DNA of 64,000 nucleotides, taken from positions 1,383-65,382 of the forward strand of contig JBBSJE010000005.1 in NCBI GenBank assembly GCA_038257535.1, written 5' to 3'. The DNA comes from Polyangia bacterium. Its GTDB lineage: Bacteria > Myxococcota_A > Polyangia > Fen-1088. Within the stretch, counting starts at the first letter, position 1. Each line of letters begins with the position of its first letter. Positions 44,346 to 64,000 of this stretch are shown piece after piece. The position numbers and the translations under genes were made by a program. A model generated the notes under the pieces. That model was not told where the DNA came from, did not search any database, and was given only the letters and a program-made list of their open reading frames with translations.

Positions 44346-45362
44346 ATGCGCTTCGAGGGCGTTAACATTCTGGGCGTGGCGCACGTGGACGCCCCCCACC
44401 GCGTCACCACCCAGGAGATCGATTCCGCGATGGCTGACACCTACGGTCGCCTGGGCCTACCCGCGCGCCTGCTGGAAAGCCTGACTGGTGTGCGTGCGCG
44501 AAGGTTTTGGGATCCCGGTATGCAACCCAGCGCAGCCGCCAGCTTGGCAGGGCGCTTGGTGCTGGAGCAAACGGGGATCGATGCTGCGCGCGTGGGGGTT
44601 TTGATCAGCACCTCGGTGAGCCGCGATTGGATCGAACCCGCCGTGGCATGCTTTGTTCACGCCAATCTGGGACTGCCAGAAACCTGCATCAACTTCGACA
44701 TTGCCAACGCGTGCCTTGGTTTCATCGACGGCATGACGGTGGTGGCCAACATGATTGAACGTGGCCAAGTTGATTATGGGTTGGTTGTAGACGGTGAGAG
44801 CAGCCGCTTTGTGGTGGAGCAAACTTTGGCGCGCCTGCGTGGGCCAGGCTGCGACGAAACGATGTTGAAGCAGCAATTGGCCACGCTCACCTTGGGCTCG
44901 GGTGCCGCCGCAATGGTGCTGGCCAGCGCGCGTGTGGCCCCGCAAGGACATAAATTTGTTGGCACCATGAGCCTGGCGGCCACCGAGCACAATCAACTGT
45001 GCCTTGGCCAAGTGGACGTGGGCGTGACCGACACACGTGGTTTGCTAACCCACGGTTTGGCACTGGCCGCCCGCACGTGGGCGCGCGCTCAGACAGACTT
45101 TGGCTGGAGCGCAGACATGGTTGATCTGTTTGCTTTGCATCAAGTCAGCGAACTTCATACGCAAGAGTTGGCGCGGGCCTTGGGCGTAAATTTAAACAAG
45201 GCGCATTTGCTTTATGCTGAGCTTGGCAATGTGGGGCCGGCCTCGGTTCCCATGGCTTTAGCCAAGGCCAACGAAGCCGAAAAACTTTCGTCCGGCGATC
45301 GTGTGATCCTGGCGGGCATTGGCAGTGGCATCAATTGCACAGCCGCGGCGGTGGTGTGGTGA
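44346..45362 (+). CDS. oleA: OleA (FabH-like thiolase for head-to-head Claisen condensation)
   Basis: 338 aa from 'MRFEGVNILG'. 'FDIANACLGF' carries the active Cys. 'HQVSELH' and 'GNVGPASVP' are present. The call is supported by the oleBCD genes immediately downstream. Confidence 0.8.
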   Translation: MRFEGVNILGVAHVDAPHRVTTQEIDSAMADTYGRLGLPARLLESLTGVRARRFWDPGMQPSAAASLAGRLVLEQTGIDAARVGVLISTSVSRDWIEPAVACFVHANLGLPETCINFDIANACLGFIDGMTVVANMIERGQVDYGLVVDGESSRFVVEQTLARLRGPGCDETMLKQQLATLTLGSGAAAMVLASARVAPQGHKFVGTMSLAATEHNQLCLGQVDVGVTDTRGLLTHGLALAARTWARAQTDFGWSADMVDLFALHQVSELHTQELARALGVNLNKAHLLYAELGNVGPASVPMALAKANEAEKLSSGDRVILAGIGSGINCTAAAVVW

Positions 45363-46300
45363 TGCAAAACGCCGTGGTTTTGCCTTCCCAGGTGCCCAGA
45401 GCGCTTTACCCCTTTGACTCCCATGTGTTGATGCGGGGTGATTTGCGTTATCATTACCTCGACGAAGGCCAAGGCGATCCCGTGGTGATGTTGCACGGGA
45501 ACCCAAGCTGGTCGTTTTATTACCGCGGCTTGGTGCAGGCGCTTTGCGACCGCCACCGCACGATTGTGCCCGATCACATAGGCATGGGCCTTTCGGACAA
45601 GCCCGGCGTAAATCAATACGATTACCAACTGGCCTCGCGCGTGAATGACCTCGAAGCGCTGTTGGCGCATCTGGGGCTTGATATGGGCCCCAAGATCACC
45701 TTGGTGATGCACGACTGGGGCGGCATGATCGGCATGACCTACGCCAGCCGCCACCCTGATCGCATTGCGCGGCTGGTGTTGATGAACACTGCGGCTTTCC
45801 ATTTGCCAGCCGACATGCGTTTGCCGCTGGCTTTGCGTTTGGTGCGTGCTGGCCCCCTGGGTGCCATGGCGGTGCAAGGCTTCAACGCTTTTAGCCGCGC
45901 CGCCGCGCACGTGGGCACCAAGCGAACAAAAATGTCAGCGGCTTTGCGCAACGCTTACTGCGCGCCTTACGATACCTGGTGCAACCGCATTGGCACGTAT
46001 CGATTTGTCAAAGACATTCCGCTCGCGCCTGCAGACCCAAGCTACGATGTGGTTAGCGGCACCGAAGCCAGCTTGCCTCTGTTTCGCAACACGCCGGCGA
46101 TGTTCGCCTGGGGCATGCAAGACTTCGTGTTCACGCCGCAAGTGCTGAAGCGATGGCAGGCCCTGTGGCCCCAAGCGGCCGTTCACACTTTCGACGACTG
46201 TGGCCACTATGTGCTTGAAGACGCCACAGCCCAGGTGTGTACGTTGGTACGGGATTTTCTGAAGCAACATCCGTTGGAGGCCGCGGAGACTGGGGCGTGA
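45362..46300 (+). CDS. oleB: OleB (alpha/beta-hydrolase, haloalkane-dehalogenase-like beta-lactone decarboxylase)
   Basis: 'HYLDEGQGDPVVMLHGNPSWSFYYR' and 'VMHDWGGMIG' are present. TGATG overlap with oleA. Confidence 0.8.
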   Translation: MQNAVVLPSQVPRALYPFDSHVLMRGDLRYHYLDEGQGDPVVMLHGNPSWSFYYRGLVQALCDRHRTIVPDHIGMGLSDKPGVNQYDYQLASRVNDLEALLAHLGLDMGPKITLVMHDWGGMIGMTYASRHPDRIARLVLMNTAAFHLPADMRLPLALRLVRAGPLGAMAVQGFNAFSRAAAHVGTKRTKMSAALRNAYCAPYDTWCNRIGTYRFVKDIPLAPADPSYDVVSGTEASLPLFRNTPAMFAWGMQDFVFTPQVLKRWQALWPQAAVHTFDDCGHYVLEDATAQVCTLVRDFLKQHPLEAAETGA

Positions 46301-48009
46301 TGGCGCTGCCCGATCCTTTGCGCGTGGGTGAAGACGGTGTGGTGAACATTGCGGCGTGTTTGCCTGCGATGGCCGCACAGCAACCGGAGGCCGTGGCGAT
46401 CTGTCAGCCTGTGGGGCGCGCGAGAGGCGGTGCGGTTCGATATCAACGCGTGACGTATGCGGAGTTGAACGCGCAAAGCGATCAAGTGGCCCGAGGCTTG
46501 GCGGCTGTGGGCATTGGTCAAGGGGTGCGGGCCGTGCTGATGGTGCCGCCGGGCCCGCAATTTTTTGCTCTGACCTTTGGCATGGCCAAAGCCGGCGTGG
46601 TGCCGGTGATGGTGGATCCCGGGTTGCCCTTGTCGCATCTGAAAACCTGCTTGGCCGAGGCCGAACCCCAAGCGTTCATTGGTTCGCCCAAAGCTCACGT
46701 GGCACGTCGTTTGTTTGGATGGGCGCGTGCGACGCTGCGTACGCACTTGGTGGTTGGTGGTCCCGCATGGTTGGCCGGTCTGCACGGGCTTGGTTGGAAC
46801 CTGCTATTGCGTGCGGGCGCGCGAAGCCAAGCGTCCGCTTTGGCACCCACGCGCGCCGAAGATGTGGCGGCGATTCTCTTCACCAGTGGCAGCACGGGCG
46901 TGCCCAAAGGGGCCGTGTACACGCACGGCAACTTTGCTGCACAGGTGGCGATGCTTAAGCACATGTCGCAGGTGCAACCTGGGGAAGTGGACCTGCCCAC
47001 GTTTCCCTTGTTTGCGCTTTTTGACCCGGCGTTGGGCATGACCACGGTGGTGCCTCAGATGGATTTTACCCGCCCCGCATCGGCCGATCCGCAGCGTTTG
47101 GTGCGCGCCTTGATTGATGAACGCGTCACCAACATGTTCGCTTCGCCGGCGTTGTTGGCAGCGCTTGGGCGTTGGGCGGCGCCGCAACAGATCAAACTTG
47201 GTGGCCTGCGACGAATCGTTTCGGCTGGGGCGCCGGTGCCACCGCAGGTGGTGAAACAGATCGTCGACTTGATGCCTGCTGGTGGCAAGGTGTTTACGCC
47301 CTATGGCGCGACCGAAGCGCTGCCGGTATGCGGAATCAACAGCGACGAAATCTTGCAGCACGCGGGGCGCACCGCTTTGGGCGCTGGTGTGTGTGTGGGG
47401 CGACCGGTGGCGGGCGTCTCGGTGAAGATCATCGCGATCTCGGATGATCCTGTCGGCGTATGGCGCGATGAGATGGCGTTGCCGCAGGGGCAAACGGGGG
47501 AAATCGTGGTGCAAGGCGCGCAGGTGACGTCGCGCTACTGGGCACGCCCCGAGGCCACACAGCTTGCGAAGATTGCTATGCCTGTGGGCAACGGGTTTTG
47601 GCATCGTATGGGTGATCTTGGGTACTTCGATGCCGAGGGACGATTGTGGTTTTGCGGACGCAAATCGCACCGGGTGGTGTTGAATGCGCAGCGCACGTTG
47701 CTCACGATTCCCTGCGAGGGTGTGTTCAATGCGCATCCCGCTGTGCGCAGAACGGCGCTGGTGGGCGTGCGAGGGGGCGCACAAACGCAGCCCGTGATTT
47801 GCGTGGAAATGGAGCCGGGCCATCCGGGCACAGCGGAGTTGATCGAAGAGTTGAAGCGTTTGGGGCAAGCTCACCCGCATACAGCGGACATTGAGCACTT
47901 CTTGTTTCACCCTGGATTTCCTGTAGACATTCGCCACAACGCCAAGATTGGCCGCGAAAAGCTGGCCGTGTGGGCCGCCAAGCGGGTGGTACAGACGCGG
48001 GCGCTATGA
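46300..48009 (+). CDS. oleC: OleC (AMP-dependent synthetase family, beta-lactone synthetase)
   Basis: 'ILFTSGSTGVPKG', 'TPYGATE' and 'HRMGDLGYFD' are present. TGATG overlap with oleB. Confidence 0.8.
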   Translation: MALPDPLRVGEDGVVNIAACLPAMAAQQPEAVAICQPVGRARGGAVRYQRVTYAELNAQSDQVARGLAAVGIGQGVRAVLMVPPGPQFFALTFGMAKAGVVPVMVDPGLPLSHLKTCLAEAEPQAFIGSPKAHVARRLFGWARATLRTHLVVGGPAWLAGLHGLGWNLLLRAGARSQASALAPTRAEDVAAILFTSGSTGVPKGAVYTHGNFAAQVAMLKHMSQVQPGEVDLPTFPLFALFDPALGMTTVVPQMDFTRPASADPQRLVRALIDERVTNMFASPALLAALGRWAAPQQIKLGGLRRIVSAGAPVPPQVVKQIVDLMPAGGKVFTPYGATEALPVCGINSDEILQHAGRTALGAGVCVGRPVAGVSVKIIAISDDPVGVWRDEMALPQGQTGEIVVQGAQVTSRYWARPEATQLAKIAMPVGNGFWHRMGDLGYFDAEGRLWFCGRKSHRVVLNAQRTLLTIPCEGVFNAHPAVRRTALVGVRGGAQTQPVICVEMEPGHPGTAELIEELKRLGQAHPHTADIEHFLFHPGFPVDIRHNAKIGREKLAVWAAKRVVQTRAL

Positions 48010-49007
48010 AAGTTCTGGTGACGGGGGGAGGCGGCTTTCTGGGTCGCGCGTTGGTACAGCGTTTGCTTCAACGGGGCGACAGTGTGGCTGTGTTGGGCCG
48101 CCGCGATCAGCCCGCGTTACGTGCGCACGGGGTGCGCGTGTGGCAAGGCGACGTTGCCAACTTCGCGATGGTGCACGAGGCGGTGGCTGGCTGCGATGGC
48201 GTGATTCATACGGCCGCGCACGTGGGTAGTTGGGGGCGCGCGGAAGACTTCGATCGCATCAACGTTGATGGCACGAAGCATGTGATCTCGGCTTGCCAAC
48301 ACCACGGCGTGAGTAAGCTGGTCTACACAAGCTCACCCTCGGTGGCCCATGGTGACGGTGACGCGGAGGGCATCAACGAAGATCACCCTTACCCCACCAC
48401 ATTCGACGCCCATTACCCCCGCACCAAAGCGCTGGCCGAGCAAGCCGTGCTTGCGGCGTCGAACGCCACGCTTTACACCGTGGCGTTGCGGCCGCATCTG
48501 ATGTGGGGGCCCGGCGACACGCAGCTTGTGCCGCGGGCGGTGCAGTTGGCACGCGCTGGAAAACTGAAGCTGCCGGGGGGGGCCGCCAAAAAGGTTGATT
48601 GCACCTACATCGACAACGCGGTGGACGCCCACATCTTGGCGTTGGATCGCTTGGCGCCGGGCGCTGCCTGTGTGGGTCGGGCGTACTTCATCAGCCAAGG
48701 TGAACCCATGCCTCAACCTGAACTCATTACCAGAGTTCTGGCCGCGGTGGGGGTTTCGGGCCCGTTCCCGAAGGTGTCTCCCGCGGCTCTGCTGATGGCG
48801 GGGGCGGCTGCCGAAGCTTGGTATCGATGGCGCGGCATCTGGGATCACGAGCCCCCGATCACGCGGTTCGTGGCTCGGCAATTAACCACCGCGCATTGGT
48901 TCGACATTACCGCCGCGCGCCGCGATTTAGGATACGTTCCCCGGGTCTCATTTGCCGAAGGGCTTCGTCGGCTTTCTGCCGCCACGGCGGAGATCGCAAA
49001 AAGCTAG
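48006..49007 (+). CDS. oleD: OleD (NAD(P)-dependent 3-beta-HSD/epimerase-family reductase)
   Basis: 'KVLVTGGGGFLG' and 'HYPRTKALAE' (YxxxK) are present. ATGA overlap with oleC. Confidence 0.8.
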   Translation: MKVLVTGGGGFLGRALVQRLLQRGDSVAVLGRRDQPALRAHGVRVWQGDVANFAMVHEAVAGCDGVIHTAAHVGSWGRAEDFDRINVDGTKHVISACQHHGVSKLVYTSSPSVAHGDGDAEGINEDHPYPTTFDAHYPRTKALAEQAVLAASNATLYTVALRPHLMWGPGDTQLVPRAVQLARAGKLKLPGGAAKKVDCTYIDNAVDAHILALDRLAPGAACVGRAYFISQGEPMPQPELITRVLAAVGVSGPFPKVSPAALLMAGAAAEAWYRWRGIWDHEPPITRFVARQLTTAHWFDITAARRDLGYVPRVSFAEGLRRLSAATAEIAKS

Positions 49008-49061
49008 GAGGCAAAAGGTGGTGGGCGCTCGCGGGGCGCGTTAACATCAGCTTCAAACCCG

Positions 49062-49985
49062 TTGAATTTTCACCAGCGCATACATCTGATCACCGGGAAG
49101 GGTGGGGTGGGACGCACCGTCGCCGCCGTGGCCCTGGCCAAGTCCCTCGCACAAGCGGGGCGCCGGGTGCTTTTGGTCGAAACGGGACAGCCCGACGAAG
49201 GTTTTTCGCCCTTGGGGCAATATTTCAAGGGCGTGCGCTTAAGCGACGAGCCGCAGCCGGTGCAAACGCAGCTAGAGGCTTGTCAGCTGTGGGCAAGAAC
49301 GGGGCACGAACTTTTTGCGCGTGCGGTGATTCCCGCGGGGCCATTGGTCACCGCGGCCTTGCGTTCGAAACCTTTGCAGCGGTTCATGCAGGCCGCGCCT
49401 TCATTTTACGAGCTGGGCATTCTTTATCACTTCCTGCATCTGCTTCAGCTCGAAAACAAAGCCGGGCAGGCGCGGTACGACGCGGTGGTGGTGGACATGC
49501 CCGCTACAGGCCACACCTTGGCGCTCACCACGCTGCCTGAGGTGGCGTTGCGGGTGGTGCCGAAGGGGCCGTTGGCCACAGCGATGCGGCGAGGCCAAGG
49601 CTTCATTTACGACGCGCGAATGACGGCGGCCTGGGTTGTGACCTTGCCCGAAACCTTGCCGGTCAGTGAAGCCATTGAACTTGTCGAAGGTTTGCGGCAA
49701 TCAAAAGTGCCGCTGGGTGGAGTGCTTCTGAATCGCTTCTTGCCCGATCCGTTTACGTCCGAAGAGCGCGCGCGGGTGCAAGTGTGGATGGACCAGCACC
49801 GCTTGCGGGGACGATTCGCGTTCGAGCGGATCGTGATGGCGGCCGAATCGGTGCAAAGGCTGTCGGAGGCCACCCACTTACCTTTGCTGCGCCTGCTGGA
49901 GGTCCCGCGCGATCTTGGCGACGCGTGTGAGGGCTTGGCGACACAGTTCACGGCGTTGCGGGCCAACAGCGGAGCGTCGCTATGA
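49062..49985 (+). CDS. ArsA/Get3-family P-loop ATPase-like protein with a degenerate Walker A (GKGGVGRT)
   Basis: 307 aa. 'ITGKGGVGRTVAAVALA' has CGC (Arg) at 49113-49115 where the P-loop Lys is expected. 'DMPATGHTLAL' is an ArsA-type switch II. TTG start. Confidence 0.7.
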   Translation: MNFHQRIHLITGKGGVGRTVAAVALAKSLAQAGRRVLLVETGQPDEGFSPLGQYFKGVRLSDEPQPVQTQLEACQLWARTGHELFARAVIPAGPLVTAALRSKPLQRFMQAAPSFYELGILYHFLHLLQLENKAGQARYDAVVVDMPATGHTLALTTLPEVALRVVPKGPLATAMRRGQGFIYDARMTAAWVVTLPETLPVSEAIELVEGLRQSKVPLGGVLLNRFLPDPFTSEERARVQVWMDQHRLRGRFAFERIVMAAESVQRLSEATHLPLLRLLEVPRDLGDACEGLATQFTALRANSGASL

Positions 49986-51139: not shown

Positions 51140-51754
51140 TCAGCTTCCCCGGGGAATGCGGGCCGCCCGGTGAAACGCATGCACGGCCGCGCTCACATCA
51201 AAGCGGCGGCCCCAAGCGGCTTTGCCGTGCGAGGATAGAAACGATTCTACGTGGCGTCGGAACTGAAATTGGCTACTCGAAGGCGGACTGGCGCGCAAAG
51301 CCCGCCCCCAAAGGCGAACCGCTGGAAGCGGCAGTAGCTTCTGTCGACGAAACACAGTCACCAGATCCGATATATCGGATTCTATGTACCTTGTGAGCTT
51401 GCCTATGGCCCAATGGGCGGGACTAAGAAGACGCAGATCCAATCGTCCGATCCGGGAGTGTCTGTGTGAACGCTTCTGATAGTCAAGCAGTGTGATCATG
51501 CCCCAGCGATCAATGTCCTCAGCCACACTGGCAGCAATACCCGTTATTCTTGACGACATCACCACACAGGCATGAACCTGGTCCCAGGTGACGCGCGATC
51601 GAGCGGGCAGACGCAGCCCGAAATCAATATCCTGACTTGGACGCACGCCCCCCCACAATGCTGCGGCACAAGCCCCGGTGAGATAAATTGTAGCTGGGGC
51701 CTGTAGCTGGTCCGACAAGACCTCGAAAAAATGCTTAATTTGCTTTGGCTTCAC
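51140..51754 (-). CDS. Minimal nucleotidyltransferase-fold protein (MNT/AbiEii-like candidate toxin)
   Basis: 204 aa. 'IYLTGACAAALWGGVRPSQDIDFGL' fits the G-x(9-14)-D-x-D NTase motif. The GTG start shares GTGA with the XRE gene stop. Confidence 0.5.
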   Translation of the reverse strand: MKPKQIKHFFEVLSDQLQAPATIYLTGACAAALWGGVRPSQDIDFGLRLPARSRVTWDQVHACVVMSSRITGIAASVAEDIDRWGMITLLDYQKRSHRHSRIGRLDLRLLSPAHWAIGKLTRYIESDISDLVTVFRRQKLLPLPAVRLWGRALRASPPSSSQFQFRRHVESFLSSHGKAAWGRRFDVSAAVHAFHRAARIPRGS

Positions 51755-52224: not shown

Positions 52225-52226
52225 CC

Positions 52227-52256
52227 AACAAATGTATCAAATTTAATACATTTGTT
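52227..52256. promoter_or_regulatory. Perfect 11-bp inverted repeat (AACAAATGTAT-N8-ATACATTTGTT), a candidate XRE operator
   Basis: Read directly. It ends 2 nt from the XRE ATG and is the most AT-rich spot of the spacer between pfa3 and the XRE gene. Confidence 0.6.
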
Positions 52257-58200: not shown

Positions 58201-58705
58201 CGATGTGCGAGACACCAAGTTCTTTCAGCAGCCCGCTGGAGGGCGCCTGAAGGCCCGTCCGAGGATCCCGCTGCCCTTCCAACCAAATGCGCTCGGCAAA
58301 CTGAGACAAGGCTTGCGATGGATAAGACAAATTGCCCACCACGGCGCCCACGCGATCCAAACTGCGGCGGTACTGGGATGCTTGCAACGCCTCGCGCCCC
58401 GTGTGAAACAGCCACTGAAACAAGGGATCCAGCGATTGCACAAACTCAGCGGGTAGGTGAAAGCCATGCGGAACAAACGCCTCCTCAAACCCCGCGACAT
58501 ATCCACCCACGTTGCTGATGGCTTTGTCGCTGGTGTCGTGTTTGTCGTGCGACAACATCAACCCGCTGCGAATGCCCCAACGCTCCGCCGGTGCGGCGCT
58601 GGTGACCACGCGGCCCGCCAGCACCAAGTCCCACAAGGAAGAGGGCGTAAGCGCGCCGGGCAACACACAGGCGCGGCCCACAATGGCGATTGGACAAAAC
58701 GACAT
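52277..58705 (-). CDS. pfa3: PUFA-synthase subunit, Pfa3/PfaC-like: KS - CLF - 2x FabA-type DH - C-terminal PlsC/AGPAT acyltransferase (2142 aa)
   Basis: KS: 'LDAACASSLYA', 'ECHATGT' and 'KANMGHL'. CLF: 'LAAEELSG' in place of the Cys. DH: 'DWFFQGHFKNDPCMPG' and 'EWFFKAHFFQDPVQPG'. Acyltransferase: 'FLANHQTSIES' and 'YVEGTR'. Confidence 0.9.
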   Translation of the reverse strand: MSFCPIAIVGRACVLPGALTPSSLWDLVLAGRVVTSAAPAERWGIRSGLMLSHDKHDTSDKAISNVGGYVAGFEEAFVPHGFHLPAEFVQSLDPLFQWLFHTGREALQASQYRRSLDRVGAVVGNLSYPSQALSQFAERIWLEGQRDPRTGLQAPSSGLLKELGVSHIDPHNRFMSGLPAHFLAQALGLGAGAFALDAACASSLYAIKYACDALSDGRADLMLAGAVNRADDLFIHAGFTALGAMSPSGRTRPFHAQADGLVPAEGAALVALARLDDALADGLPILGVIRGIGLSNDGRGRGLLVPTQTGQVRALRAAYNAAGIDPSWISYVECHATGTTVGDAVEIATLGEVFGEASQPLAIGSLKANMGHLITAAGAAGLLKVLSAFEAGIRPATPSLDEPSSALDHTSLRALNAPEPWPDLHGPRIAAVSAFGFGGNNAHVIVQEPPSPGRPVSIAVPASFRAAAPGPVAVVAMGARVADGQNVADFAEALFTGNSRVTQGAARAYEVALSMQGLRFPPKDLEETLPQQLMVLAAAREAMAKVNDLRSASTGVFVGMQCDAEIARHGARWRAAEWAERLHAPEGWLSATRDGFVPLLGAAGVLGAMPNVVANRLSSQLDLQGPSFTLAAEELSGVRALQLAQRALAAGEIDAALVGAVDLCAEPVHLAAAKVLSPKRQVGGDAAVVLVLKRLQDARGANDEILFVVDAFANEDASPADSLRWGDEAQAVSLQALFGHAHAANGLLHVAAAGLCCAYGLRPGPAHAFSGRVKTPTPPLPWPAEGNRHAEVFITALGEQSARVHVAAAQPTSVAAPTASEMPSWLAQLRASCERLQTPVLAFAAHRAAPHMPQLLAAPAPTATTTPVAVAMKAPPQVMPMAPTLPSATSSLLATAHTTHGGHSQPAPPMAGVASPPPVVETQLPGFAQHFAYRRHLSQMHQGFVATQAALHTRFLHLRQAGLSLLLKGPTPLQAATTLPEPPPPVAPQATPAAPAVSKASLPQDPKGPSFSRADLEVHASGPISQIFGPAFADQDQHAIVVRMPEPPLLLADRVVGLQAEAGSMGLGTVWTETDVRPDSWFLNRGYMPAGIMIEAGQADLFLISYLGVDAFNRGQRAYRLLGCELTYHGSLPKPGDTLRYAISIDAHARQGDVRLFFFHYDCIVGDRKALTVRQGQAGFFSKQELDDSAGVLWSPEDQDITPQPRLDRPAVPCTTQNFSPEQVRAFAAGDSYTCFGKGFELAQTHTRSPAIQTGRMLLVDEIAALDPQGGPWKRGYLKAITAISPTDWFFQGHFKNDPCMPGTLMFEGCLQAMAFYLAAMGYTLSRDGWRFEPVPEESYKLQCRGQVLPGSKQLVCELFVEEVHDGPYPTLYADLLGTVDGLKAFHARRVGLRLVPDWPLTSIAAPPTPTPQTSPPEIGGFHFDYASLLACAWGRPSDAFGPMYRVFDDTRRVARLPGPPYHFMSRVTRIDGELGACKPGATIEIEYDVPPQAWYFDESGQKVMPFCVLLEAVLQPCGWLASFVGSALLSDEDLCFRNLDGTGRVCAEVFPSSGSLRTRTTITGVSRSGGMILQTFDVKCFMGQTLVYDLQTGFGFFPKAALENQVGLPTPEAQRALFAAPSEFSVDLISRPARYCQGHLRMPRPMLLMLDRITAYDPAGGHAGLGFARAEKAVNPAEWFFKAHFFQDPVQPGSLGIEAMLQLLQFVMLHKGLHEGMRAPRFEAVALNHEMTWKYRGQVVPRNHTITTTLEVTSRSQDDRGQLVIAEASLWVDGKRIYHASNLGMRIVDDAPPAAESEDIPAQNALRKLEAVEVLPQVRAFWRHHLGTLPPPVDQIFSILVSRFVANIHIAGETTERTMANAPRGVLFLANHQTSIESTLFAIVASAFVNAPVLTLAKPETQQHWIELLMRHSFSYPGLKRPQMAQVFDNNHADTLPGIIAEMAQQMRDNRRSVMVYVEGTRALSCADPVRTLSGTFIDMALSVDCPIVPVRLVGGLPRAPLQERTDFPVGLGQQAIYLGTPLLANELRGMNYGERRTHVLRAINDLGPSADHEQPFAPDPDLQAQAQAWSHSTGASFGHAVIYRLLEQMPEPCEALQLLLKAGRGEIVELPDTPESRWLAELGKRLLGTSHTLRVPHGTP

Positions 58706-58718
58706 AGGTAAAGTGGCC

Positions 58719-61040
58719 TTAAGTTATCAGGGCTGGGGGGGCGGTCGGCTCCGCCGCAGCAATCACATGTGTTTCCACACCTCGCAGCTCCATCACCAGC
58801 GTGCCGGTGGCGTCAAGGAACGCCACATCCGCCACGCAGCGGGCGCCGCGGCCTTCGCGCGCGTGCAACACCGCACGCAAGCGGCCTTGCGCAGGGCCAG
58901 GAGCGTACACGCACAACGCTTCTAGGCCTGTGGGCAACGAGACACCGCCCAAGCTCTCATGCGTCCACAACAGCGCCAGCTGCAAGGCCGCATCAACCAG
59001 CGCCGCATCGATGTGCCAGCTGGCATGCTCAAGCGGAAACGCCGCTGGCCATTGTTTGTCGTGCACCCCCACAACGGTGGCAACAAGGCCGTTGGCGCCT
59101 TTGCCATCAAGCGATTGCAGCATATGAAAACTGGGTCCGTGAAACAGCGGCGCTTGGCCGTAGATCTCCCGCTGGTGCGGGGCCAGATCCGTGGGTAGCG
59201 CCGCCATGTGATCGGGCGTGTGGGCGTGGTCGCGGAGGTCGCAGGTGGCGGCATACAGCTTTGCGCCATCGCTGGCCAAGAGCTCAAGCGACACGCTGGT
59301 TTGCCCACCGTTTGAAAGCTGCCGTACGACAACGCTGACCCGCTCGGCGTGGCCTTGGTCGAACCTTGGCAAGCGCAGCCCCCGAAGCACCTTTACGTTT
59401 CGCAGCGCCCAAACCTGCAAGTTAGGTTTGAACGCCATCGCCGTTCGCGCAAACCATTCCAGCACCAAGGCCATGGGCACGACAGGCACGCCTTTGATGC
59501 GATGGCCATCAAGGTAGCCGTGCGTTTGCGGCCCCACCAGCAATTCGCAGGCAAATGTGCGACCACTTTCCGGCCCCGCCAAGCCGTGACCTGAAACGTC
59601 GTTGCCTAAGATCACTTCAGGGTTTCGGGTGACGCTTGTGCATTCGTCACAGAAGGCTTGAGCCCCGGCACCTACGTTGATAAGTCCCACGCCCATCGCT
59701 GCAAAACGAGCGCGCAAGCCATCGTCCACCATGCCGCCATCCCAAGGTCCCCAACCCAACGCGCGCACGATGGCATTGCCGCCGCGCCGGTTTTGTTCAA
59801 ACGCGGCCACTTTGTTCAGCACCTCATTGGCCATGGCGTAATCGCATTGGCCCAAGTTGCCGGATCGCGCGGCCACCGACGAAAACAACAACAGCAGTCG
59901 CAGCGGATCAGCTTGCGTGGCCGCCAGCAGGGCGCGCAACCCGGCCACCTTTGTGGCCATCACGCGCGCAAATTGCGCATCGGTTTTGGCGGCGATCAAC
60001 TTGTCGGCCAGCACACCCGCGCCATGCACCACAGCTGTGACGGGACCCCAATGCAAACGCCGTTCGGCCACGGCGTCCCGCACGGCTTCATTGTTGGTGG
60101 CATCCACGACGGCGTAGTGAACTTCACTGCCGGTTGCGTGTAGCTGGTTAATGTTGGCGTTAATTTCACGCACCGCCAAGATTTGGTTCGCTTGCCGGCC
60201 AATGCTGGCCAGATCAATGTTTTGGCCCGCTTGTTTGGCGGCGAGCGCAAGCGCGCGCTTGAGGTCCGTTTCAGTCTTTGCTTGCGCACACGCGTCCGGC
60301 TCGTGCTGCAACGGTGTACGGCCCAAAAGCAGAATGCGTGCAGGCGCAGTGTGCGCCAGTTGTAGCAAGCAGGCGGCGGTGACTCCACGTGCGCCACCGG
60401 TGGCAACCACGAAGGCCACATCATCTCTATTGAGAGGCCGCGTTGCCTCGGCGGCAAACGGCGCAGATTCCAGAGCAACACGCACGCGACCGGCCGTGGG
60501 CGAAAGGCCCACCTCGCGTTCAGGGGCGCCCCACAACAGTTCGTGCGCCAGCGCCTCGGCCATCTGTTCAGAAGAGCGTGCGCCCCAGGGCAGATCGATG
60601 GCGCGAACACATGCCTGTGGCCATTCAACCGCTGCTGTGCGCACCAACGCTGCGGGGCCCGCCGCCCACGCGCGGGGCGATCCCGAAAGCCCAAAATCGC
60701 CGCCCGTGTCTTGCACCGTGATGAAGGTGCCGCCTTCAGCCGCAAAACGTGTGGCCACCGCGCGCGCCACGGCAAACACGTTGAAGTTGATCTGTTCAGC
60801 TTGGGCGGCCGACGCCCCCACGTCGCTTGACAATGGGGACAAGCCTTCAAGACAGATCACAGCTTGGGCCATGTGAGCGTGCTGGTCGATCAGCCCCACC
60901 ACAACGTGGGCGCCTTGTTGCCGAAGCCTTTTTGCCAGCGCGTCGGCCACGCCGGCGTTGTCGTTGGTGATCACCACCAGGCCGCCACCCAAAAGTCCTG
61001 GCGTGGCCAATCCCCGAGCAGGCGAGGGCACCGCGCGCAC
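58719..61040 (-). CDS. pfa2: PUFA-synthase KR - PKS-type DH module (the C-terminal half of a Pfa2/PfaA-type protein, here a separate ORF)
   Basis: KR: 'VVATGGARGVTAA' and 'SSVAARSGNLGQCDYAMAN'. DH: 'HGYLDGHRIKGVPVVP'. GTG start with no obvious SD. Confidence 0.85.
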   Translation of the reverse strand: MRAVPSPARGLATPGLLGGGLVVITNDNAGVADALAKRLRQQGAHVVVGLIDQHAHMAQAVICLEGLSPLSSDVGASAAQAEQINFNVFAVARAVATRFAAEGGTFITVQDTGGDFGLSGSPRAWAAGPAALVRTAAVEWPQACVRAIDLPWGARSSEQMAEALAHELLWGAPEREVGLSPTAGRVRVALESAPFAAEATRPLNRDDVAFVVATGGARGVTAACLLQLAHTAPARILLLGRTPLQHEPDACAQAKTETDLKRALALAAKQAGQNIDLASIGRQANQILAVREINANINQLHATGSEVHYAVVDATNNEAVRDAVAERRLHWGPVTAVVHGAGVLADKLIAAKTDAQFARVMATKVAGLRALLAATQADPLRLLLLFSSVAARSGNLGQCDYAMANEVLNKVAAFEQNRRGGNAIVRALGWGPWDGGMVDDGLRARFAAMGVGLINVGAGAQAFCDECTSVTRNPEVILGNDVSGHGLAGPESGRTFACELLVGPQTHGYLDGHRIKGVPVVPMALVLEWFARTAMAFKPNLQVWALRNVKVLRGLRLPRFDQGHAERVSVVVRQLSNGGQTSVSLELLASDGAKLYAATCDLRDHAHTPDHMAALPTDLAPHQREIYGQAPLFHGPSFHMLQSLDGKGANGLVATVVGVHDKQWPAAFPLEHASWHIDAALVDAALQLALLWTHESLGGVSLPTGLEALCVYAPGPAQGRLRAVLHAREGRGARCVADVAFLDATGTLVMELRGVETHVIAAAEPTAPPALIT

Positions 61041-61069
61041 AGCCCAGCGGGCCAGCGGTGCGCCAGCGC

Positions 61070-64000
61070 TTACGGGGCCTTCTGTGCTAAAGGGCGGGGG
61101 GCGCCCTCCGTGGCACCGTTCGAGGTCGCTTGGTGCGCGCCGTTGCTGCCAGCGCCGGTGGCGCCAAGTCCACCTTCTTGCCCCAGATGGTTCACGATTT
61201 CACGCAAGGTGCGCATCGACGCCAGTTTGGCCGTGTTCACGTCGGGCAGGCCGGGTGCACGTTCCATGACGGCCGACAAGATCTCCACGCGTTTGATGGA
61301 GTCCACGCCGAGATCCGCTTCCAGGTCCATGTCCAAGCCCAGCATCTCTTCGGGGTAACCCGTGCGTGCGGCCACCACGTTCAACATCAACGCCTGCAAA
61401 CCATCCAGCGTCAACGACGCCGTTGCCGGTTGGGTATGCCCGTTGCCGTTCGATGCCGAAGTGGCCTGGGCGGGCGCGGCCTGCGGCGGTGGTGCCGCGG
61501 CAAATGAAGGTGCTGGCTGGGCGGGCGCAAGCGATGGCGCCGCTGAATAAACCGGCGGTTGCGGCACAGGTGCTGCGGCTGGTGCATACGTGGGTGCTGG
61601 CGGGGCCGCTGCGTACACCGGTGCGGGTGGCGCAGGCGGCATGAACGCGGGTGGTGCATATAGAGCTGTTGGCGCCGGCACATACTGAGCGATAGGCGGC
61701 GCAGCGAACGCGTGATACGCAGGTGCCGCATACGCCTGCCCCCCCAGCGCATGCGTAAGCCCCATCAAAGACGACTCAGCGGCGCGCAAAAACGCCGTGT
61801 GAGACTCTGCCATGGCCCTTTGAAACGCGGCGTGCGCTTCAGCGGTTTGGCGTTGGCTTTCCGAGATGGCCATCACCCATGCGTATTGCACTTGTGGATC
61901 CATTCCCGCGCTCACGGGCGCTTGAGTGGGCGCAGGGGCAACGGGCGCAGGCGCAACGGGCGCAGGGGCAACGGTGGGCTGTTCAGGATTGGGCTTAGGC
62001 AAAGCGGCGGCTCCTCCGGGTGGCGGATAAGGCTTTCCGTAGCCGGCGCCGTTGACCTTCAACGTGAGCGCGGGCTTGGTTTTCAAACGTGGATCGGCAG
62101 GCACCGCGAACGGCACCCACAAAGCTGCAAAATCAAGTGACACCCCTGCGGCAGCCAACGCCCCCAACCCTTGCCACAACATAGCCACACCGGATCGGCC
62201 CTTGCGATTGAGCGCAATTGCACGGTGAGGCTTGTCTTTCAAAATGTGGCCCACCAACGCCGTGAGAACATGCCCCGGCCCCACCTCAACGAAGGTGCGC
62301 ACGCCTTGCGCGTACATGGCTTCGATTTGTTCAACGAAGCGTACGGAACTTGCGAGCTGATCAGCCAGCAGGGTCCGCATCGCTTCGGGCTCGTTGGGGT
62401 AGGGCGCGGCGGTGGCGTTTGCGTAAACAGGACAAGCCGCAGGTGAAAAGGTGATCGACCCCAACGCTTGCGAGAACGGCACCCGTGCCGCGCTGACGAC
62501 GGGCGAATGAAAGGCGGTGGCCACGTCCAACCGTGTGGCGGAAACGCCTTGCGAGGAAAGCTGGGTTTCAAGTTCGGTGATGGCTTGCGTTTGCCCCGAC
62601 ACCACGACCTGTCGGGGGCTGTTGTGGTTGGCCACCACCACAGCGGCTTCGGGGCCCTGATGCCCAGCCGTCTGCAAGTGCGCTTGCACCTCGGCAAGCG
62701 GTGCCGCCACAGACAGCATCGCGCCCGGTGCTTGCGCGGCCTGAGCCATCACCTGGCCGCGTTGACGGGCGGCTGCAACGAAGTCGGCTTCGCTCAGCAC
62801 CCCCGCGGCAAACAGCGCCGTCACTTCGCCAAAACTGTGCCCTGCCACCGCAGTAGGCATTAGCCCCAACGTGCGCAGCACATTCAAGTACGCCCAACTG
62901 GTCACGCCAAGGGCAGGCTGCGCCCATTGCGTGGCCAACAGGCGTTCGCGTTGCGCTTGTGTTTGCGTTTCATCGAAGGCCGGCCGCGGAAACACCACGC
63001 GATCCAACCGCTCATCGCAGGTCGACGGTGTGTTCAGTTCGCGTTCAAGCGATGCGGCCGCGTCCCAAGCTTGTTGTGCGGGCGCAAACGCCATCACCAC
63101 GTCGGCCGCCATGTTCAGATATTGGCTGCCTTGACCGGGAAACAAAAACGCCACGTCGCCAGCTGCCTGCCCCATGGCAAATTCAAGGCCACCAGGAACG
63201 CTTACGCTGCGCTCTTGCCGTGCCACCGTTGCGGCTTGAGCGAGCTTGCTTTGCAGCTCGCTCAAGTTGGTCGCGAACACGGCCAAGCGCGCGCTGGGAT
63301 TCGGCTCGAAGTTCGTTTGTGAGTCGTGCGCCCAGAAGGCCAGCAACGCATGCTGCGCTTCGGGGTCAGGCGTATGGCTTGCAAACTCACGCGCTTGCGA
63401 AGCCAGTTCGTCGCATCGAGCGGCCACCGCTTGGCCTGAACCGCCTGCAAGCAACAGCAAGTGGCCGTCAGGTGGCAGATCGCGCGCGGCCAATTGTGCA
63501 GGCCCTTGATACTCTTCAAGCGCAACGTGAAAGTTTGAACCGCCAAAGCCAAATGAACTCACAGCCGCGCGGCGGGGATGATCATTGCCGCGCACCCAGG
63601 GGCGGGCAACGGTATTCAAATAGAAAGGGGTGCTGTCGATCTGCAGTTTGGGATCGGGCTTCTGCACCTTGATCGTGGGCGGCAGCACTTTGTGGTGCAG
63701 CGCCATCACCGCCTTGAACAAACCGGCAGCGCCTGCGGCCGCCTTGGTATGCCCCACCTGCGATTTGACCGAACCCAAGGCACACCAACCGGTGTCGGTG
63801 CTGCCCGATTCTTCAAACACCATGCGCAGCCCGCCAAATTCGGCAGCGTCGCCGGCTTTGGTGCCCGTGCCGTGGGCTTCCATCAATTCAATGGTGTGAG
63901 CGCCAAACCCCGCTTGTTCATAAGCTCGCCGCAAGGCCACCGCTTGGCCTGCCGACACGGGGGCGTATACGCTTTTGGATCGCCCATCCGACGAACTGCC
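61070..64000 (-). CDS. pfa2: PUFA-synthase KS (partial) - MAT - Pro/Ala-rich linker - single ACP (N-terminal part of Pfa2/PfaA; 5' end outside the window)
   Basis: The frame stays open to the window edge ('GSSSDGRSKSVYAPVSAGQA...'). KS: 'EAHGTGT' and 'KSQVGHT'. MAT: 'FPGQGSQY' and 'GHSFGE'. There is one ACP, 'LGVDSIKRVEI' (Ser codon at about 61298-61300). Confidence 0.9.
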   Translation of the reverse strand, partial: GSSSDGRSKSVYAPVSAGQAVALRRAYEQAGFGAHTIELMEAHGTGTKAGDAAEFGGLRMVFEESGSTDTGWCALGSVKSQVGHTKAAAGAAGLFKAVMALHHKVLPPTIKVQKPDPKLQIDSTPFYLNTVARPWVRGNDHPRRAAVSSFGFGGSNFHVALEEYQGPAQLAARDLPPDGHLLLLAGGSGQAVAARCDELASQAREFASHTPDPEAQHALLAFWAHDSQTNFEPNPSARLAVFATNLSELQSKLAQAATVARQERSVSVPGGLEFAMGQAAGDVAFLFPGQGSQYLNMAADVVMAFAPAQQAWDAAASLERELNTPSTCDERLDRVVFPRPAFDETQTQAQRERLLATQWAQPALGVTSWAYLNVLRTLGLMPTAVAGHSFGEVTALFAAGVLSEADFVAAARQRGQVMAQAAQAPGAMLSVAAPLAEVQAHLQTAGHQGPEAAVVVANHNSPRQVVVSGQTQAITELETQLSSQGVSATRLDVATAFHSPVVSAARVPFSQALGSITFSPAACPVYANATAAPYPNEPEAMRTLLADQLASSVRFVEQIEAMYAQGVRTFVEVGPGHVLTALVGHILKDKPHRAIALNRKGRSGVAMLWQGLGALAAAGVSLDFAALWVPFAVPADPRLKTKPALTLKVNGAGYGKPYPPPGGAAALPKPNPEQPTVAPAPVAPAPVAPAPTQAPVSAGMDPQVQYAWVMAISESQRQTAEAHAAFQRAMAESHTAFLRAAESSLMGLTHALGGQAYAAPAYHAFAAPPIAQYVPAPTALYAPPAFMPPAPPAPVYAAAPPAPTYAPAAAPVPQPPVYSAAPSLAPAQPAPSFAAAPPPQAAPAQATSASNGNGHTQPATASLTLDGLQALMLNVVAARTGYPEEMLGLDMDLEADLGVDSIKRVEILSAVMERAPGLPDVNTAKLASMRTLREIVNHLGQEGGLGATGAGSNGAHQATSNGATEGAPRPLAQKAP
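61928..61972 (-). repeat. Three tandem 15-bp units encoding (PVAPA)3 in the MAT-ACP linker
   Basis: The plus strand reads gggcgcaggggcaac / gggcgcaggcgcaac / gggcgcaggggcaac. Confidence 0.9.

What the first reader, a model, noticed from the sequence alone, without database searches (positions are those of the whole stretch)
44346..64000. Physical linkage of an ole olefin operon with a PUFA-type (pfa) megasynthase: candidate dedicated polyunsaturated-hydrocarbon/lipid supercluster
Within 20 kb lie oleABCD, two ArsA/Get3-like ATPases, and, on the opposite strand facing them, pfa3 plus a pfa2 that runs off the edge. In Shewanella the Pfa synthase is known to feed OleABCD to make a C31 polyene, but there the two loci are far apart. 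Here they are neighbours. The synthase is also atypical: it has a single ACP, no AT in Pfa3, and a C-terminal AGPAT domain of the kind reported for terrestrial myxobacterial Pfa3. This raises two possibilities: a dedicated polyolefin route, or a branch point between acylating phospholipid (AGPAT) and head-to-head condensation (OleA). The enoyl reductase (pfa1) and the rest of the KS would lie beyond 64000, so I cannot see them. I also cannot tell from here whether this linkage has been reported.
Basis: partly seen in the sequence, partly recalled or inferred. Interest (0 to 1): 0.7.

Follow-up and report, generated by a model that had tools for sequence, protein, structure and literature searches.

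The report
Olefin operon beside PUFA synthase genes
An uncultured myxobacterium carries a complete olefin (oleABCD) operon end-to-end with a PUFA-type fatty-acid megasynthase, a kind of linkage already known in other bacteria, but here the olefin operon also includes a conserved, previously unremarked pair of Get3/ArsA-like ATPases.

Summary
On the + strand, oleA-oleB-oleC-oleD and two ArsA/Get3-fold ATPase genes form one tightly packed operon (44346-51127). It converges on a minus-strand operon: KS-AT-ACP (cut by the window edge), KR-DH (a separate ORF, so "pfa2" is split), Pfa3 (KS-CLF-DH-DH-AGPAT, no AT), then two small inserted genes.

The adjacency is not a one-off. 18 of 160 Pfa-anchored loci from genomes and metagenomes carry ole genes, in at least three arrangements.

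The linkage is not new as a kind. Geobacter bemidjiensis has pfa and ole in tandem and makes C31:9. Photobacterium profundum has them adjacent. Shulse & Allen (2011) wrote that ole genes are "often linked" to such clusters and speculated that the AGPAT-bearing Type L feeds olefins.

The single ACP and the AT-less Pfa3 are normal for this clade.

The apparently unreported part is the ATPase pair. Its best solved matches are M. tuberculosis Rv3679/Rv3680 (BagAB). It recurs as oleABCD-bagAB, as bagAB converging on pfa3, or as bagAB-ER-pfa2-pfa3.

Most likely function: the Pfa synthase feeds OleABCD to make a polyunsaturated long-chain hydrocarbon, with AGPAT as a phospholipid branch. The product is inferred, not shown.

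The parts
44346..45362 (+). oleA: thiolase that joins two acyl chains head-to-head (acyl-CoA:acyl-CoA alkyltransferase)
   Evidence: NCBIfam PRK09258 at 422 bits against a cut-off of 285. Best PDB hits are the Xanthomonas OleA structures (3fk5, 3row, 4ku5) at E 1e-102, against about 1e-20 for FabH. Cys (ANAC), His (HQVS), Asn (GNVGP) and the Glu117 equivalent (IEP) are all conserved in the alignment. The 338-aa product is on record as a called gene (P0121).
45335..46300 (+). oleB: alpha/beta hydrolase, the predicted beta-lactone decarboxylase. Coordinates give the longest ORF; the true start is probably a little downstream.
   Evidence: Abhydrolase_1 at E 4.6e-36. Best NCBIfam hits are haloalkane-dehalogenase models at E 1e-44, all below their cut-offs. 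It always follows oleA in relatives. Catalytic residues were not checked.
46237..48009 (+). oleC: AMP-dependent olefin beta-lactone synthetase. Coordinates give the longest ORF; homology begins near residue 35.
   Evidence: PRK09274 at 715 bits against a cut-off of 478. OlefBLtnSynXan gives 668 bits (cut-off 900) and OlefBLtnSynShew gives 613 bits (cut-off 850).
47970..49007 (+). oleD: NAD(P)H-dependent 2-alkyl-3-oxoalkanoate reductase. Homology begins at residue 13, so the start probably overlaps the oleC stop.
   Evidence: NF042422 oxyalk_red_OleD at E 1.8e-120, 402 bits, below the cut-off of 580. 3Beta_HSD at E 1e-54.
49062..49985 (+). bagA-like ArsA/Get3-fold ATPase subunit with a variant P-loop, GKGGVGRT
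   Evidence: ArsA_ATPase at E 1e-20. Best PDB hit is M. tuberculosis Rv3679 (6bs3_A) at E 1.3e-19. The P-loop Lys-to-Arg change is conserved in all homologues examined. It starts 55 nt after the oleD stop.
49982..51127 (+). bagB-like ArsA/Get3-fold ATPase subunit with a canonical P-loop, GAGGVGKTT
   Evidence: ArsA_ATPase at E 1.6e-27. NCBIfam BagB model at E 2e-58, 198 bits against a cut-off of 521. Best PDB hit is Rv3680 (6bs3_B) at E 4.9e-48. Its start overlaps the bagA stop by 4 nt (ATGA). The pair recurs next to ole and/or pfa in L001, L002, L011, L113, L161-L164, L167 and L169.
51140..51754 (-). 204-aa ORF of unknown family, last gene of the minus-strand operon; probably an insertion
   Evidence: No Pfam or NCBIfam hit. 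It is absent from the closest relative with this junction: in L161 (BagB 82% identical) pfa3 abuts bagB directly.
51751..52224 (-). XRE-type HTH_3 DNA-binding protein (157 aa), paired with the 204-aa ORF
   Evidence: HTH_3 at E 1.3e-12. Its stop overlaps the start of the 204-aa ORF by 4 nt. An 11-bp perfect inverted repeat at 52227-52256 lies just upstream.
52277..58705 (-). pfa3 (PfaC-like): KS-CLF-DH(FabA)-DH(FabA)-AGPAT, no AT domain
   Evidence: Pfam hits: ketoacyl-synt in 2 stretches, FabA in 4 stretches, Acyltransferase PF01553 at residues 1862-1994. Best PDB hit is the Moritella PfaC KS-CLF didomain (6riw) at E 1e-100. KS has Cys200, His335 and His372. CLF has no Cys at the equivalent position 634. 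FabA-type His at 1294 and 1685. No GHSxG motif. AGPAT motifs are NHQTSIES and EGTR.
58719..61040 (-). pfa2b: KR plus PKS-type dehydratase, as a separate ORF (longest-ORF coordinates)
   Evidence: KR at E 2e-32, PS-DH at E 1.6e-16, PKS_DH_N. The same split into KS-AT-ACP and KR-DH genes occurs in isolate genomes of Paenibacillus and Cohnella (L030, L032, L033, L036) and in L006, L012 and L016, so it is probably genuine and not an error.
61070..64000 (-). pfa2a: KS(C-terminal part)-AT-long Ala/Pro linker-single ACP; the 5' end lies beyond the window
   Evidence: The frame is open from 64000 to the stop at 61070-61072. Ketoacyl-synt_C, Acyl_transf_1 at E 6e-40, one PP-binding hit. GHSFG at residue 387 and a single LGVDS at residue 898 of the visible part.

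Best explanation
This is a two-operon lipid supercluster of an uncultured Myxococcota bacterium.

1. The minus-strand operon encodes an iterative PUFA-type synthase of the myxobacterial 'Type L' kind. Its proteins are KS-AT-ACP, KR-DH and KS-CLF-DH-DH-AGPAT. The enoyl reductase is presumably upstream, beyond the window. The synthase builds a polyunsaturated acyl chain on its single ACP.
2. The chain has two exits. The C-terminal AGPAT domain can transfer it onto lysophosphatidic acid, giving a membrane phospholipid. Alternatively OleA takes two such chains and joins them head-to-head.
3. OleD then reduces the beta-keto acid, OleC closes the beta-lactone, and OleB decarboxylates it. The result is a very long polyunsaturated olefin that partitions into the membrane.
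4. The two co-transcribed BagAB-like Get3/ArsA-fold ATPases form a heterodimer with one canonical and one Lys-to-Arg P-loop. They act as an ATP-driven accessory. They either handle the very hydrophobic intermediates or product, or they bring the Ole/Pfa machinery or a client protein to the membrane.

What is shown: gene content, domain order, catalytic motifs, operon packing and conserved synteny. What is inferred: the flux from Pfa to OleA, the nature of the product and the role of the ATPases.
For: - All four Ole enzymes are present. OleA keeps its catalytic Cys, His and Asn plus the OleA-specific Glu.
- The Pfa domains keep their catalytic residues, and the AGPAT keeps the family-wide NHx4E and EGTR motifs.
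- The genes are tightly packed: bagA follows oleD by 55 nt, and bagB overlaps bagA by 4 nt.
- Ole genes are next to pfa in 18 of 160 Pfa-anchored loci, in three arrangements:
  - convergent after pfa3: window, L113, L161, L007, L016, L002/L011 and the L003 type;
  - oleABCD-ER-pfa2-pfa3, co-directional: L102, L137, L152;
  - pfa3-oleAB(C), co-directional: L156, L158.
- OleA-anchored look-ups also find pfa3/pfa2 (L168). ATPase-anchored look-ups find oleABCD-bagAB converging on pfa3 at 59% identity.
- Precedent: Pfa is required for the Ole product in Shewanella, and G. bemidjiensis, with tandem pfa-ole, makes C31:9. OleA made its condensation product without acyl-CoA synthetase activity, which the authors take as consistent with acyl-ACP use.
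- The ATPase pair is linked in four ways:
  - to both ole and pfa: window, L113, L161, and the JGI contig;
  - to ole alone: L169; in L167 the contig ends right after bagB, so pfa cannot be judged there;
  - to pfa alone: L001, L162/L163;
  - at the head of the pfa operon: L002, L011.
Against: - There is no product data for any member of this clade.
- No thioesterase or PfaT homologue and no PPTase were found among the window genes scanned (not every ORF was scanned).
- The ER gene is not visible. It is absent within about 4 kb upstream of pfa2 in L001 and the L003-type relatives.
- The characterised AT-less relative (Sorangium) makes only linoleic acid, so the chain may be far less unsaturated than in the C31:9 systems.
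- Many Pfa3-AGPAT loci have no ole gene within 10 kb, for example Paenibacillus, Cohnella and Plesiocystis. Some oleABCD operons of this clade have no pfa nearby (L169, L170).
- BagAB-like pairs also occur in unrelated contexts in Myxococcota (L165, L166), so part of their linkage could be inherited synteny.
- OleC and OleD score below NCBIfam's equivalog cut-offs.
Confidence: 0.6

Rival explanations
1. The two systems are neighbours but chemically independent. The Pfa synthase only makes PUFA for phospholipids through its own AGPAT domain. OleABCD condenses ordinary FAS-II acyl-CoAs, as in Xanthomonas. The genes cluster because both remodel the membrane and are co-regulated or co-inherited.
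For: - The window's OleC and OleD score slightly higher against the Xanthomonas-type NCBIfam models than against the Shewanella-type models: 668 against 613 bits, and 402 against 340 bits.
- The AGPAT domain gives the synthase a self-sufficient exit.
- oleABCD(-bagAB) operons of the same clade exist without adjacent pfa (L169, L170).
- No thioesterase was found to release chains for OleA.
Against: - Linkage recurs in three different gene orders, including direct co-directional fusions into one apparent operon (L102, L137, L156, L158). That is hard to explain without a shared pathway.
- In every case tested experimentally so far (Shewanella; Geobacter by product), ole in a pfa-bearing genome uses Pfa-derived chains exclusively.
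Confidence: 0.2
2. The Ole-type enzymes work on Pfa products, but the end product is not a simple olefin. It could be a polyunsaturated ketone, a 2-alkyl-3-hydroxy acid or a beta-lactone lipid. The core unit would be OleA plus OleB next to Pfa3, with OleC and OleD as optional additions.
For: - Many close relatives carry only oleA-oleB (L003, L004, L012, L013, L015, L053, L168) or oleA-oleB-oleD (L002, L011) next to pfa3. They give no OleC hit even at E 1e-4.
- OleA alone is known to yield ketones: the 31:8 ketone in E. coli.
Against: - The window itself has a complete, tightly packed oleABCD. All four genes give their best matches to the olefin-pathway families.
- oleC could lie elsewhere in the genomes of those relatives.
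Confidence: 0.12
3. The ArsA/Get3-like pair is a housekeeping module unrelated to lipid synthesis, for example stress protection as proposed for M. tuberculosis BagAB. On this view it merely sits next to ole and pfa through shared ancestry.
For: - Homologues 53-57% identical lie in unrelated neighbourhoods (L165, L166).
- The pfa-head copies in L002 and L011 are only 43-46% identical to the window's pair, more distant than those unlinked copies.
Against: - The pair keeps company with ole and/or pfa through several rearrangements: after oleD; directly abutting pfa3 with ole 8 kb away or absent; and in front of ER-pfa2-pfa3.
- It has operon-type spacing or overlap in all of these.
Confidence: 0.4

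Closest known systems
Geobacter bemidjiensis pfaD-A-B-C / oleA-B-C-D / pfaE tandem cluster (Shulse & Allen Type I), a C31:9 hentriacontanonaene producer. Also the adjacent pfa and ole operons of Photobacterium profundum SS9.
   Same: A PUFA-type iterative synthase sits physically next to a complete oleABCD set. The published interpretation is that the synthase supplies the polyunsaturated acyl chains that OleA condenses.
   Different: - Here the synthase is the myxobacterial type: a fused KS-CLF-DH-DH with a C-terminal AGPAT, no PfaB-type AT, one ACP, and pfa2 split in two.
- The operons are convergent, not tandem.
- No pfaE or pfaT was found in the window.
- Two Get3/ArsA-like ATPase genes are appended to oleD.
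Myxobacterial Pfa1-Pfa2-Pfa3 PUFA synthases (Sorangium cellulosum linoleic-acid type; Aetherobacter and Minicystis EPA/DHA/AA types). This is Shulse & Allen 'Type L'.
   Same: - Pfa2 is KS-AT-ACP-KR-DH and Pfa3 is KS-CLF-(AT)-DH-DH-AGPAT.
- The AGPAT domain is the signature feature of the family.
- The window's AT-less Pfa3 matches the Sorangium variant.
   Different: - The papers on these synthases that were read here do not mention ole genes.
- Here pfa2 is split and has a single ACP.
- Identity to the nearest genome sequence found is only 65-66% (L001 and L006, uncultured Myxococcota).
- ER is not visible in the window.
Xanthomonas campestris / Stenotrophomonas OleABCD olefin pathway
   Same: Same four enzyme families in the same order. 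OleA catalytic residues, including the Glu117 equivalent, are conserved. The Xanthomonas OleA structures are the best solved match.
   Different: Xanthomonas uses FAS-II acyl-CoAs and has no pfa. Published ole gene contexts (0-3 intervening genes, oleBC fusions, oleACD without oleB) do not include ArsA/Get3-like genes.
Mycobacterium tuberculosis Rv3679/Rv3680 (BagAB) Get3-like heterodimeric ATPase, PDB 6BS3-6BS5
   Same: - Two adjacent genes in the same order.
- Each window protein matches its cognate subunit best: E 1.3e-19 and E 4.9e-48.
- Both have the ArsA/Get3 fold.
   Different: - Scores are well below NCBIfam's equivalog cut-offs: 92 against 400 and 198 against 521.
- The A subunit has GKGGVGRT where Rv3679 has GKGGTGKS.
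- The mycobacterial pair is not known to be linked to ole or pfa. From my own knowledge, its proposed role is protection from glycerol and nitric oxide toxicity, and its molecular function is unknown.

Membership tests
OleABCD head-to-head olefin pathway | OleA thiolase with Cys143, His285 and Asn315, plus the OleA-specific Glu117 base (X. campestris numbering) | tested here: met
   In the alignment to X. oryzae OleA (3fk5), ANAC, HQVS, GN(V/I)GPAS and (L/I)EP are all conserved. E 1e-102, against about 1e-20 for FabH. NCBIfam PRK09258 is above its cut-off.
OleABCD head-to-head olefin pathway | OleC, OleD and OleB homologues encoded with oleA | tested here: met
   All three follow oleA with overlapping or near-overlapping ORFs. 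OleC passes PRK09274 but not the Xanthomonas or Shewanella olefin beta-lactone synthetase cut-offs. OleD is the best hit to the OleD model but scores 402 against a cut-off of 580. OleB catalytic residues were not checked.
OleABCD head-to-head olefin pathway | Production of a long-chain internal olefin | not testable with these tools
   Needs GC-MS of the organism or of a heterologous host.
PUFA (Pfa) synthase, myxobacterial Type L | PfaC/Pfa3-like protein with KS-CLF followed by two FabA-type DH domains | tested here: met
   Pfam hits. Moritella PfaC KS-CLF (6riw) at E 1e-100. KS Cys200 is present, the CLF lacks the Cys, and two FabA His motifs are present.
PUFA (Pfa) synthase, myxobacterial Type L | [quoted passage not shown] | tested here: met
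   PF01553 at residues 1862-1994, E 1.7e-8. Motifs are NHQTSIES and EGTR. The Hx4E form (not Hx4D) is shared by 75 of 75 Pfa3 relatives examined. Activity is not testable here.
PUFA (Pfa) synthase, myxobacterial Type L | Pfa2/PfaA-like KS-AT-ACPn-KR-DH with multiple tandem ACPs, the hallmark Shulse & Allen used to find such clusters | tested here: not met
   The domain order is present, but there is only one ACP and the protein is split into two ORFs. One ACP is common among relatives (32 of 80), so this is a clade trait, not a defect.
PUFA (Pfa) synthase, myxobacterial Type L | PfaD/Pfa1 enoyl reductase in the cluster, and a PPTase somewhere in the genome | not testable with these tools
   The 5' side lies beyond base 64000, and the source contig could not be retrieved. 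ER is directly upstream of pfa2 in L006, L002, L011 and L016, but not in L001 or the L003 type. No PPTase was found among the window ORFs scanned.
BagAB (Rv3679/Rv3680) Get3-like ATPase pair | Two adjacent ArsA-fold genes, each matching its cognate subunit | tested here: met
   6bs3_A is the best hit for the first gene and 6bs3_B for the second.
BagAB (Rv3679/Rv3680) Get3-like ATPase pair | Scores above the curated equivalog cut-offs (same function implied) | tested here: not met
   BagA model 92 bits against a cut-off of 400. BagB model 198 bits against a cut-off of 521. Treat these as distant relatives, not equivalogs.

The most novel reading that the evidence does not exclude
The BagAB-like Get3/ArsA-fold ATPase heterodimer is a dedicated, ATP-driven component of the PUFA-to-olefin pathway in Myxococcota. 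It might be a chaperone or hand-off device for extremely hydrophobic acyl, beta-lactone or olefin species. It might instead be a targeting factor that places the Ole/Pfa assembly, or a tail-anchored partner, at the membrane. That would give a first biochemical context for a bacterial Get3-like family whose function is still unknown, and it would add a fifth and sixth gene to the ole pathway.
Probability: 0.35. Interest if true: 0.65.

Novelty: new variant of a known kind. Interest (0 to 1): 0.42.

Why it matters
Ole-pfa coupling is already an accepted idea, so this window does not open a new field. It does add three things.

1. It extends the coupling to the AGPAT-bearing myxobacterial synthases. 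Their only known fate so far is phospholipid PUFA. One synthase may therefore serve two lipid classes, membrane PUFA and a neutral polyene.
2. It shows the coupling is widespread in uncultured soil and sediment Myxococcota, and that it was rebuilt in several gene orders.
3. It supplies a testable genomic context for BagAB-type bacterial Get3-like ATPases. Their mechanism is unknown, and their M. tuberculosis members matter for stress survival.

The compact region of about 20-23 kb is also a ready-made candidate for heterologous production of polyunsaturated hydrocarbons.

Tried and rejected
- **Extending the contig past 64000.** Exact-product look-ups for Pfa3, KR-DH and the window's own BagB (P0001) all returned nothing. 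The protein index shows a 73,442-bp source contig. ER and the KS N-terminus therefore remain unseen.
- **Finding the source genome.** The genome scan gave at best 65-66% identity on Pfa3 (L001 and L006). The metagenome scan gave at best 59% on KR-DH. The organism can only be placed as Myxococcota-like, from its nearest neighbours.
- **A frame error of my own.** My first KS-AT-ACP query was cut one base out of frame, which gave spurious 34% hits and no ACP motif. This was corrected.
- **Is the pfa2 split a sequencing frameshift?** Rejected as the default, because the same split occurs in isolate genomes (Paenibacillus, Cohnella) and in several MAGs. It cannot be excluded for this contig.
- **Is the AGPAT inactive because it has Hx4E and not Hx4D?** Rejected, because the Glu is invariant in 75 of 75 relatives.
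- **Searches that found nothing.** Rfam over the whole window gave no match. Promoter and terminator consensus scans across 43-53 kb found no more sites than shuffled sequence.
- **Other lipid genes in the window.** No PPTase, thioesterase or desaturase was found among the ORFs scanned in the other 44 kb. The upstream DeoR regulator and acetyl-CoA-synthetase-like gene were not found next to ole in the relatives whose flanks reach that far.
- **Literature.** Sukovich et al. 2010 (PMC2893475) is not held in the library. A search for BagAB papers returned nothing useful.

Full report
**1. What is in the sequence**

On the + strand there is a tightly packed six-gene operon:

| Gene | Coordinates | Main evidence |
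|---|---|---|
| oleA | 44346-45362 | 338 aa, also called as a gene in a public collection (P0121) |
| oleB | 45335-46300 | alpha/beta hydrolase |
| oleC | 46237-48009 | AMP-binding; PRK09274 715 bits, cut-off 478; olefin beta-lactone synthetase models E 7e-201 and 5e-184 |
| oleD | 47970-49007 | OleD model E 1.8e-120 |
| ATPase 1 | 49062-49985 | ArsA/Get3 fold |
| ATPase 2 | 49982-51127 | ArsA/Get3 fold |

The first ATPase gene starts 55 nt after the oleD stop. The second overlaps the first by 4 nt.

On the minus strand, converging on this operon and ending 13 nt from it, are five genes:

- KS-AT-ACP, from beyond 64000 to the stop at 61070-61072. The frame is open to the window edge.
- KR plus PKS-type DH, 58719-61040.
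- Pfa3, 52277-58705, 2142 aa.
- An HTH_3 protein, 51751-52224.
- A 204-aa ORF with no family hit, 51140-51754.

So 'pfa2' is split into two genes, and two small genes were overlooked.

**2. Are these the enzymes they look like?**

*OleA.* Its best solved relatives are the Xanthomonas OleA structures at E 1e-102, against about 1e-20 for FabH. The alignment keeps the catalytic Cys, His and Asn, and the Glu that distinguishes OleA. The role of Glu117 is cited in PMC7064751.

*Pfa3.*
- The best solved relative is the Moritella PfaC KS-CLF didomain at E 1e-100.
- The KS has Cys200, His335 and His372. The CLF has no Cys at the equivalent position.
- Two FabA-type His motifs are present (1294 and 1685).
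- There is no AT motif and no AT Pfam hit.
- The C-terminal PF01553 domain has NHQTSIES and EGTR. The Hx4E form, in place of the textbook Hx4D, is invariant in 75 of 75 relatives. It is a family trait, not a sign of decay.

*KS-AT-ACP.* The visible part has GHSFG, a linker of about 250 aa rich in Ala and Pro, and exactly one ACP motif.

**3. Is the arrangement conserved?**

The source contig could not be retrieved. The nearest sequences are uncultured Myxococcota at no more than 66% identity on Pfa3.

tblastn of the window's proteins against 160 Pfa-anchored loci found ole genes next to pfa in 18 of them. There are three architectures:

- (a) **ole converging on the 3' end of pfa3**: the window, L113, L161, L007, L016, L002/L011, and L003, L004, L012, L013, L015, L053.
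- (b) **oleABCD-ER-pfa2-pfa3, co-directional**: L102, L137, L152.
- (c) **pfa3-oleAB(C), co-directional**: L156, L158.

Two other anchors give the same picture. An OleA-anchored look-up (L168, OleA 67% identical) shows oleA-oleB facing pfa3-pfa2. An ATPase-anchored look-up at 59% identity shows mlaEFD-oleABCD-bagAB facing pfa3-pfa2.

ole operons are rare, and 10 kb is a tiny fraction of a genome. This recurrence in different gene orders is therefore strong evidence for a shared pathway. The linkage is not universal. Paenibacillus, Cohnella, Plesiocystis and many other Pfa3-AGPAT loci have no ole gene within 10 kb. L169 and L170 have ole without pfa nearby.

**4. What is already known**

[quoted passage not shown] They define Type L by a fused KS-CLF-DH2-acyltransferase with ER at the 5' end. 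They also suggest that Type L may contribute to olefins.
- The Mar Drugs review (PMC4882568) shows that G. bemidjiensis has pfaDABC-oleABCD-pfaE in tandem and makes C31:9. It notes that S. cellulosum Pfa3 lacks the AT and that the organism makes only linoleic acid.
- Allemann et al. (PMC6463001) describe adjacent pfa and ole operons in P. profundum SS9. They also found the OleA condensation product in a strain lacking acyl-CoA synthetase activity.

The features called 'atypical' are typical of this clade: one ACP in 32 of 80 relatives and two in 28 of 80, the AT-less Pfa3 as in Sorangium, and a pfa2 split that also occurs in isolate genomes.

**5. What seems new: the ATPase pair**

Each protein matches its cognate subunit of M. 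tuberculosis Rv3679/Rv3680 (BagAB, PDB 6BS3) best, at E 1.3e-19 and 4.9e-48, and the genes are in the same order. Scores are far below NCBIfam's equivalog cut-offs. The B subunit has a canonical GAGGVGKTT P-loop. The A subunit has GKGGVGRT, and this Lys-to-Arg change is conserved in every homologue examined.

The pair occurs in five kinds of context:

| Context | Loci |
|---|---|
| oleABCD-bagAB converging on pfa3 | window; L161 (82% identical); L113; JGI contig (59%) |
| oleABCD-bagAB without pfa within 4 kb | L169; in L167 the contig ends right after bagB, so pfa cannot be judged |
| bagAB abutting pfa3, with ole 8 kb away or absent | L001, L162/L163 |
| bagAB-ER-pfa2-pfa3, co-directional | L002, L011 |
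| Unrelated neighbourhoods, 53-57% identical | L165, L166 |

No paper in the searchable library mentions ole genes or PUFA synthases together with ArsA or Get3. Published surveys of ole gene contexts list no such genes. I rate a dedicated role as plausible but unproven, at about 0.35-0.4.

**6. Mechanism**

*Shown:* an intact domain set for an iterative PUFA-type synthase with a built-in lysophosphatidate acyltransferase; an intact OleABCD set; operon-level packing; and conserved linkage.

*Inferred:* the synthase makes a polyunsaturated acyl-ACP. The AGPAT domain sends part of it to phospholipid, as proposed for myxobacterial Pfa3. OleA condenses two chains. OleD, OleC and OleB then convert the product to a long polyene hydrocarbon. 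The BagAB-like heterodimer supplies an ATP-driven step that handles hydrophobic clients or targets components to the membrane.

The chain length and the degree of unsaturation cannot be predicted. The nearest characterised AT-less synthase makes 18:2, so the product could be much less unsaturated than C31:9.

*Rivals:*
- Independent pathways that are merely co-located (0.2).
- A non-olefin Ole product such as a ketone, a hydroxy acid or a beta-lactone (0.12). This is suggested by relatives that carry only oleA-oleB or oleA-oleB-oleD beside pfa3.
- For the ATPases alone, a housekeeping role unrelated to lipids (0.4).

**7. Verdict**

The finding is real, conserved and biologically coherent. Its headline claim is already in the literature for other Pfa types, and was anticipated for this one. 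I classify it as a new variant of a known kind: an AGPAT-type, single-ACP, split-Pfa2 synthase, coupled to an ole operon extended by a Get3-like ATPase pair. Interest is moderate, at 0.42.

Noticed in passing
window 51140-52256 (-): A two-gene module (XRE-type HTH_3 protein, then an overlapping 204-aa ORF with no family hit) sits between pfa3 and bagB. It is absent from the 82%-identical relative L161, where pfa3 abuts bagB. A perfect 11-bp inverted repeat, AACAAATGTAT-N8-ATACATTTGTT, lies in an AT-rich patch at 52227-52256, 2 nt before the HTH start codon. The module looks like an inserted regulator/toxin-antitoxin-like cassette with its own operator or hairpin.
   Followed up: partly
L002, L011 (16.4-19.4 kb); L003, L004, L012, L013, L015, L053; L168: Close relatives carry only oleA-oleB-oleD, or only oleA-oleB, next to pfa3. 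They give no OleC hit even at E 1e-4. In L004 and L012 the ORF upstream of oleA is a PMT_2-type glycosyltransferase-like membrane protein; L003, L015 and L053 have a similar-sized ORF there that was not scanned. In the oleA-oleB-only loci, AGPAT motif III reads EGAM, not EGTR. This may point to a different end product in those lineages.
   Followed up: partly
window 49062-49985; homologues in L001, L113, L161-L167: The BagA-like subunit has Arg in place of the P-loop Lys (GKGGVGRT) in every Myxococcota homologue seen, whatever its gene context. The BagB-like subunit is canonical. This suggests an asymmetric heterodimer with one catalytically unusual site.
   Followed up: partly
window 52277-58705 (Pfa3 residues about 1870-1965) and 75 related loci: The AGPAT domain of Pfa3 proteins uses NHQxxxES (Hx4E), not the canonical acyltransferase Hx4D. 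This holds in 75 of 75 relatives, from Myxococcota to Paenibacillus.
   Followed up: yes
JGI 3300050046 contig (no DNA held): An MlaE-MlaF-MlaD-auxiliary lipid-transport operon lies immediately upstream of oleABCD-bagAB in one relative. This hints at a further link between the pathway and lipid trafficking.
   Followed up: no
L001 1-3843; L003, L004, L010, L012, L039, L053 upstream of pfa2: Several of the closest pfa2-pfa3 clusters have no enoyl-reductase gene within about 4 kb upstream. In L001 a GH106 rhamnosidase occupies that position. L006, L002, L011 and L016 have ER directly upstream, and L021 has it divergent. Either ER is encoded elsewhere or these synthases work without it.
   Followed up: partly
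window 61800-62550 (-), between AT and ACP: An unusually long (about 250 aa), highly Ala/Pro-rich, repeat-like linker separates the AT domain from the single ACP. It occupies the space where other PUFA synthases carry tandem ACPs.
   Followed up: no
window 1689-7502 (-): A 1937-aa hybrid histidine kinase with about 7-8 tandem HAMP domains, a GAF domain, HisKA/HATPase and three receiver domains.
   Followed up: no
window 40538-44305: An acetyl-CoA-synthetase-like gene (ACAS_N + AMP-binding), a 239-aa multi-pass membrane protein of unknown family (minus strand) and a DeoR-family regulator lie directly upstream of oleA. The regulator ends 41 nt before the oleA start. None of them was seen next to ole in the relatives whose flanks reach that far.
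   Followed up: partly
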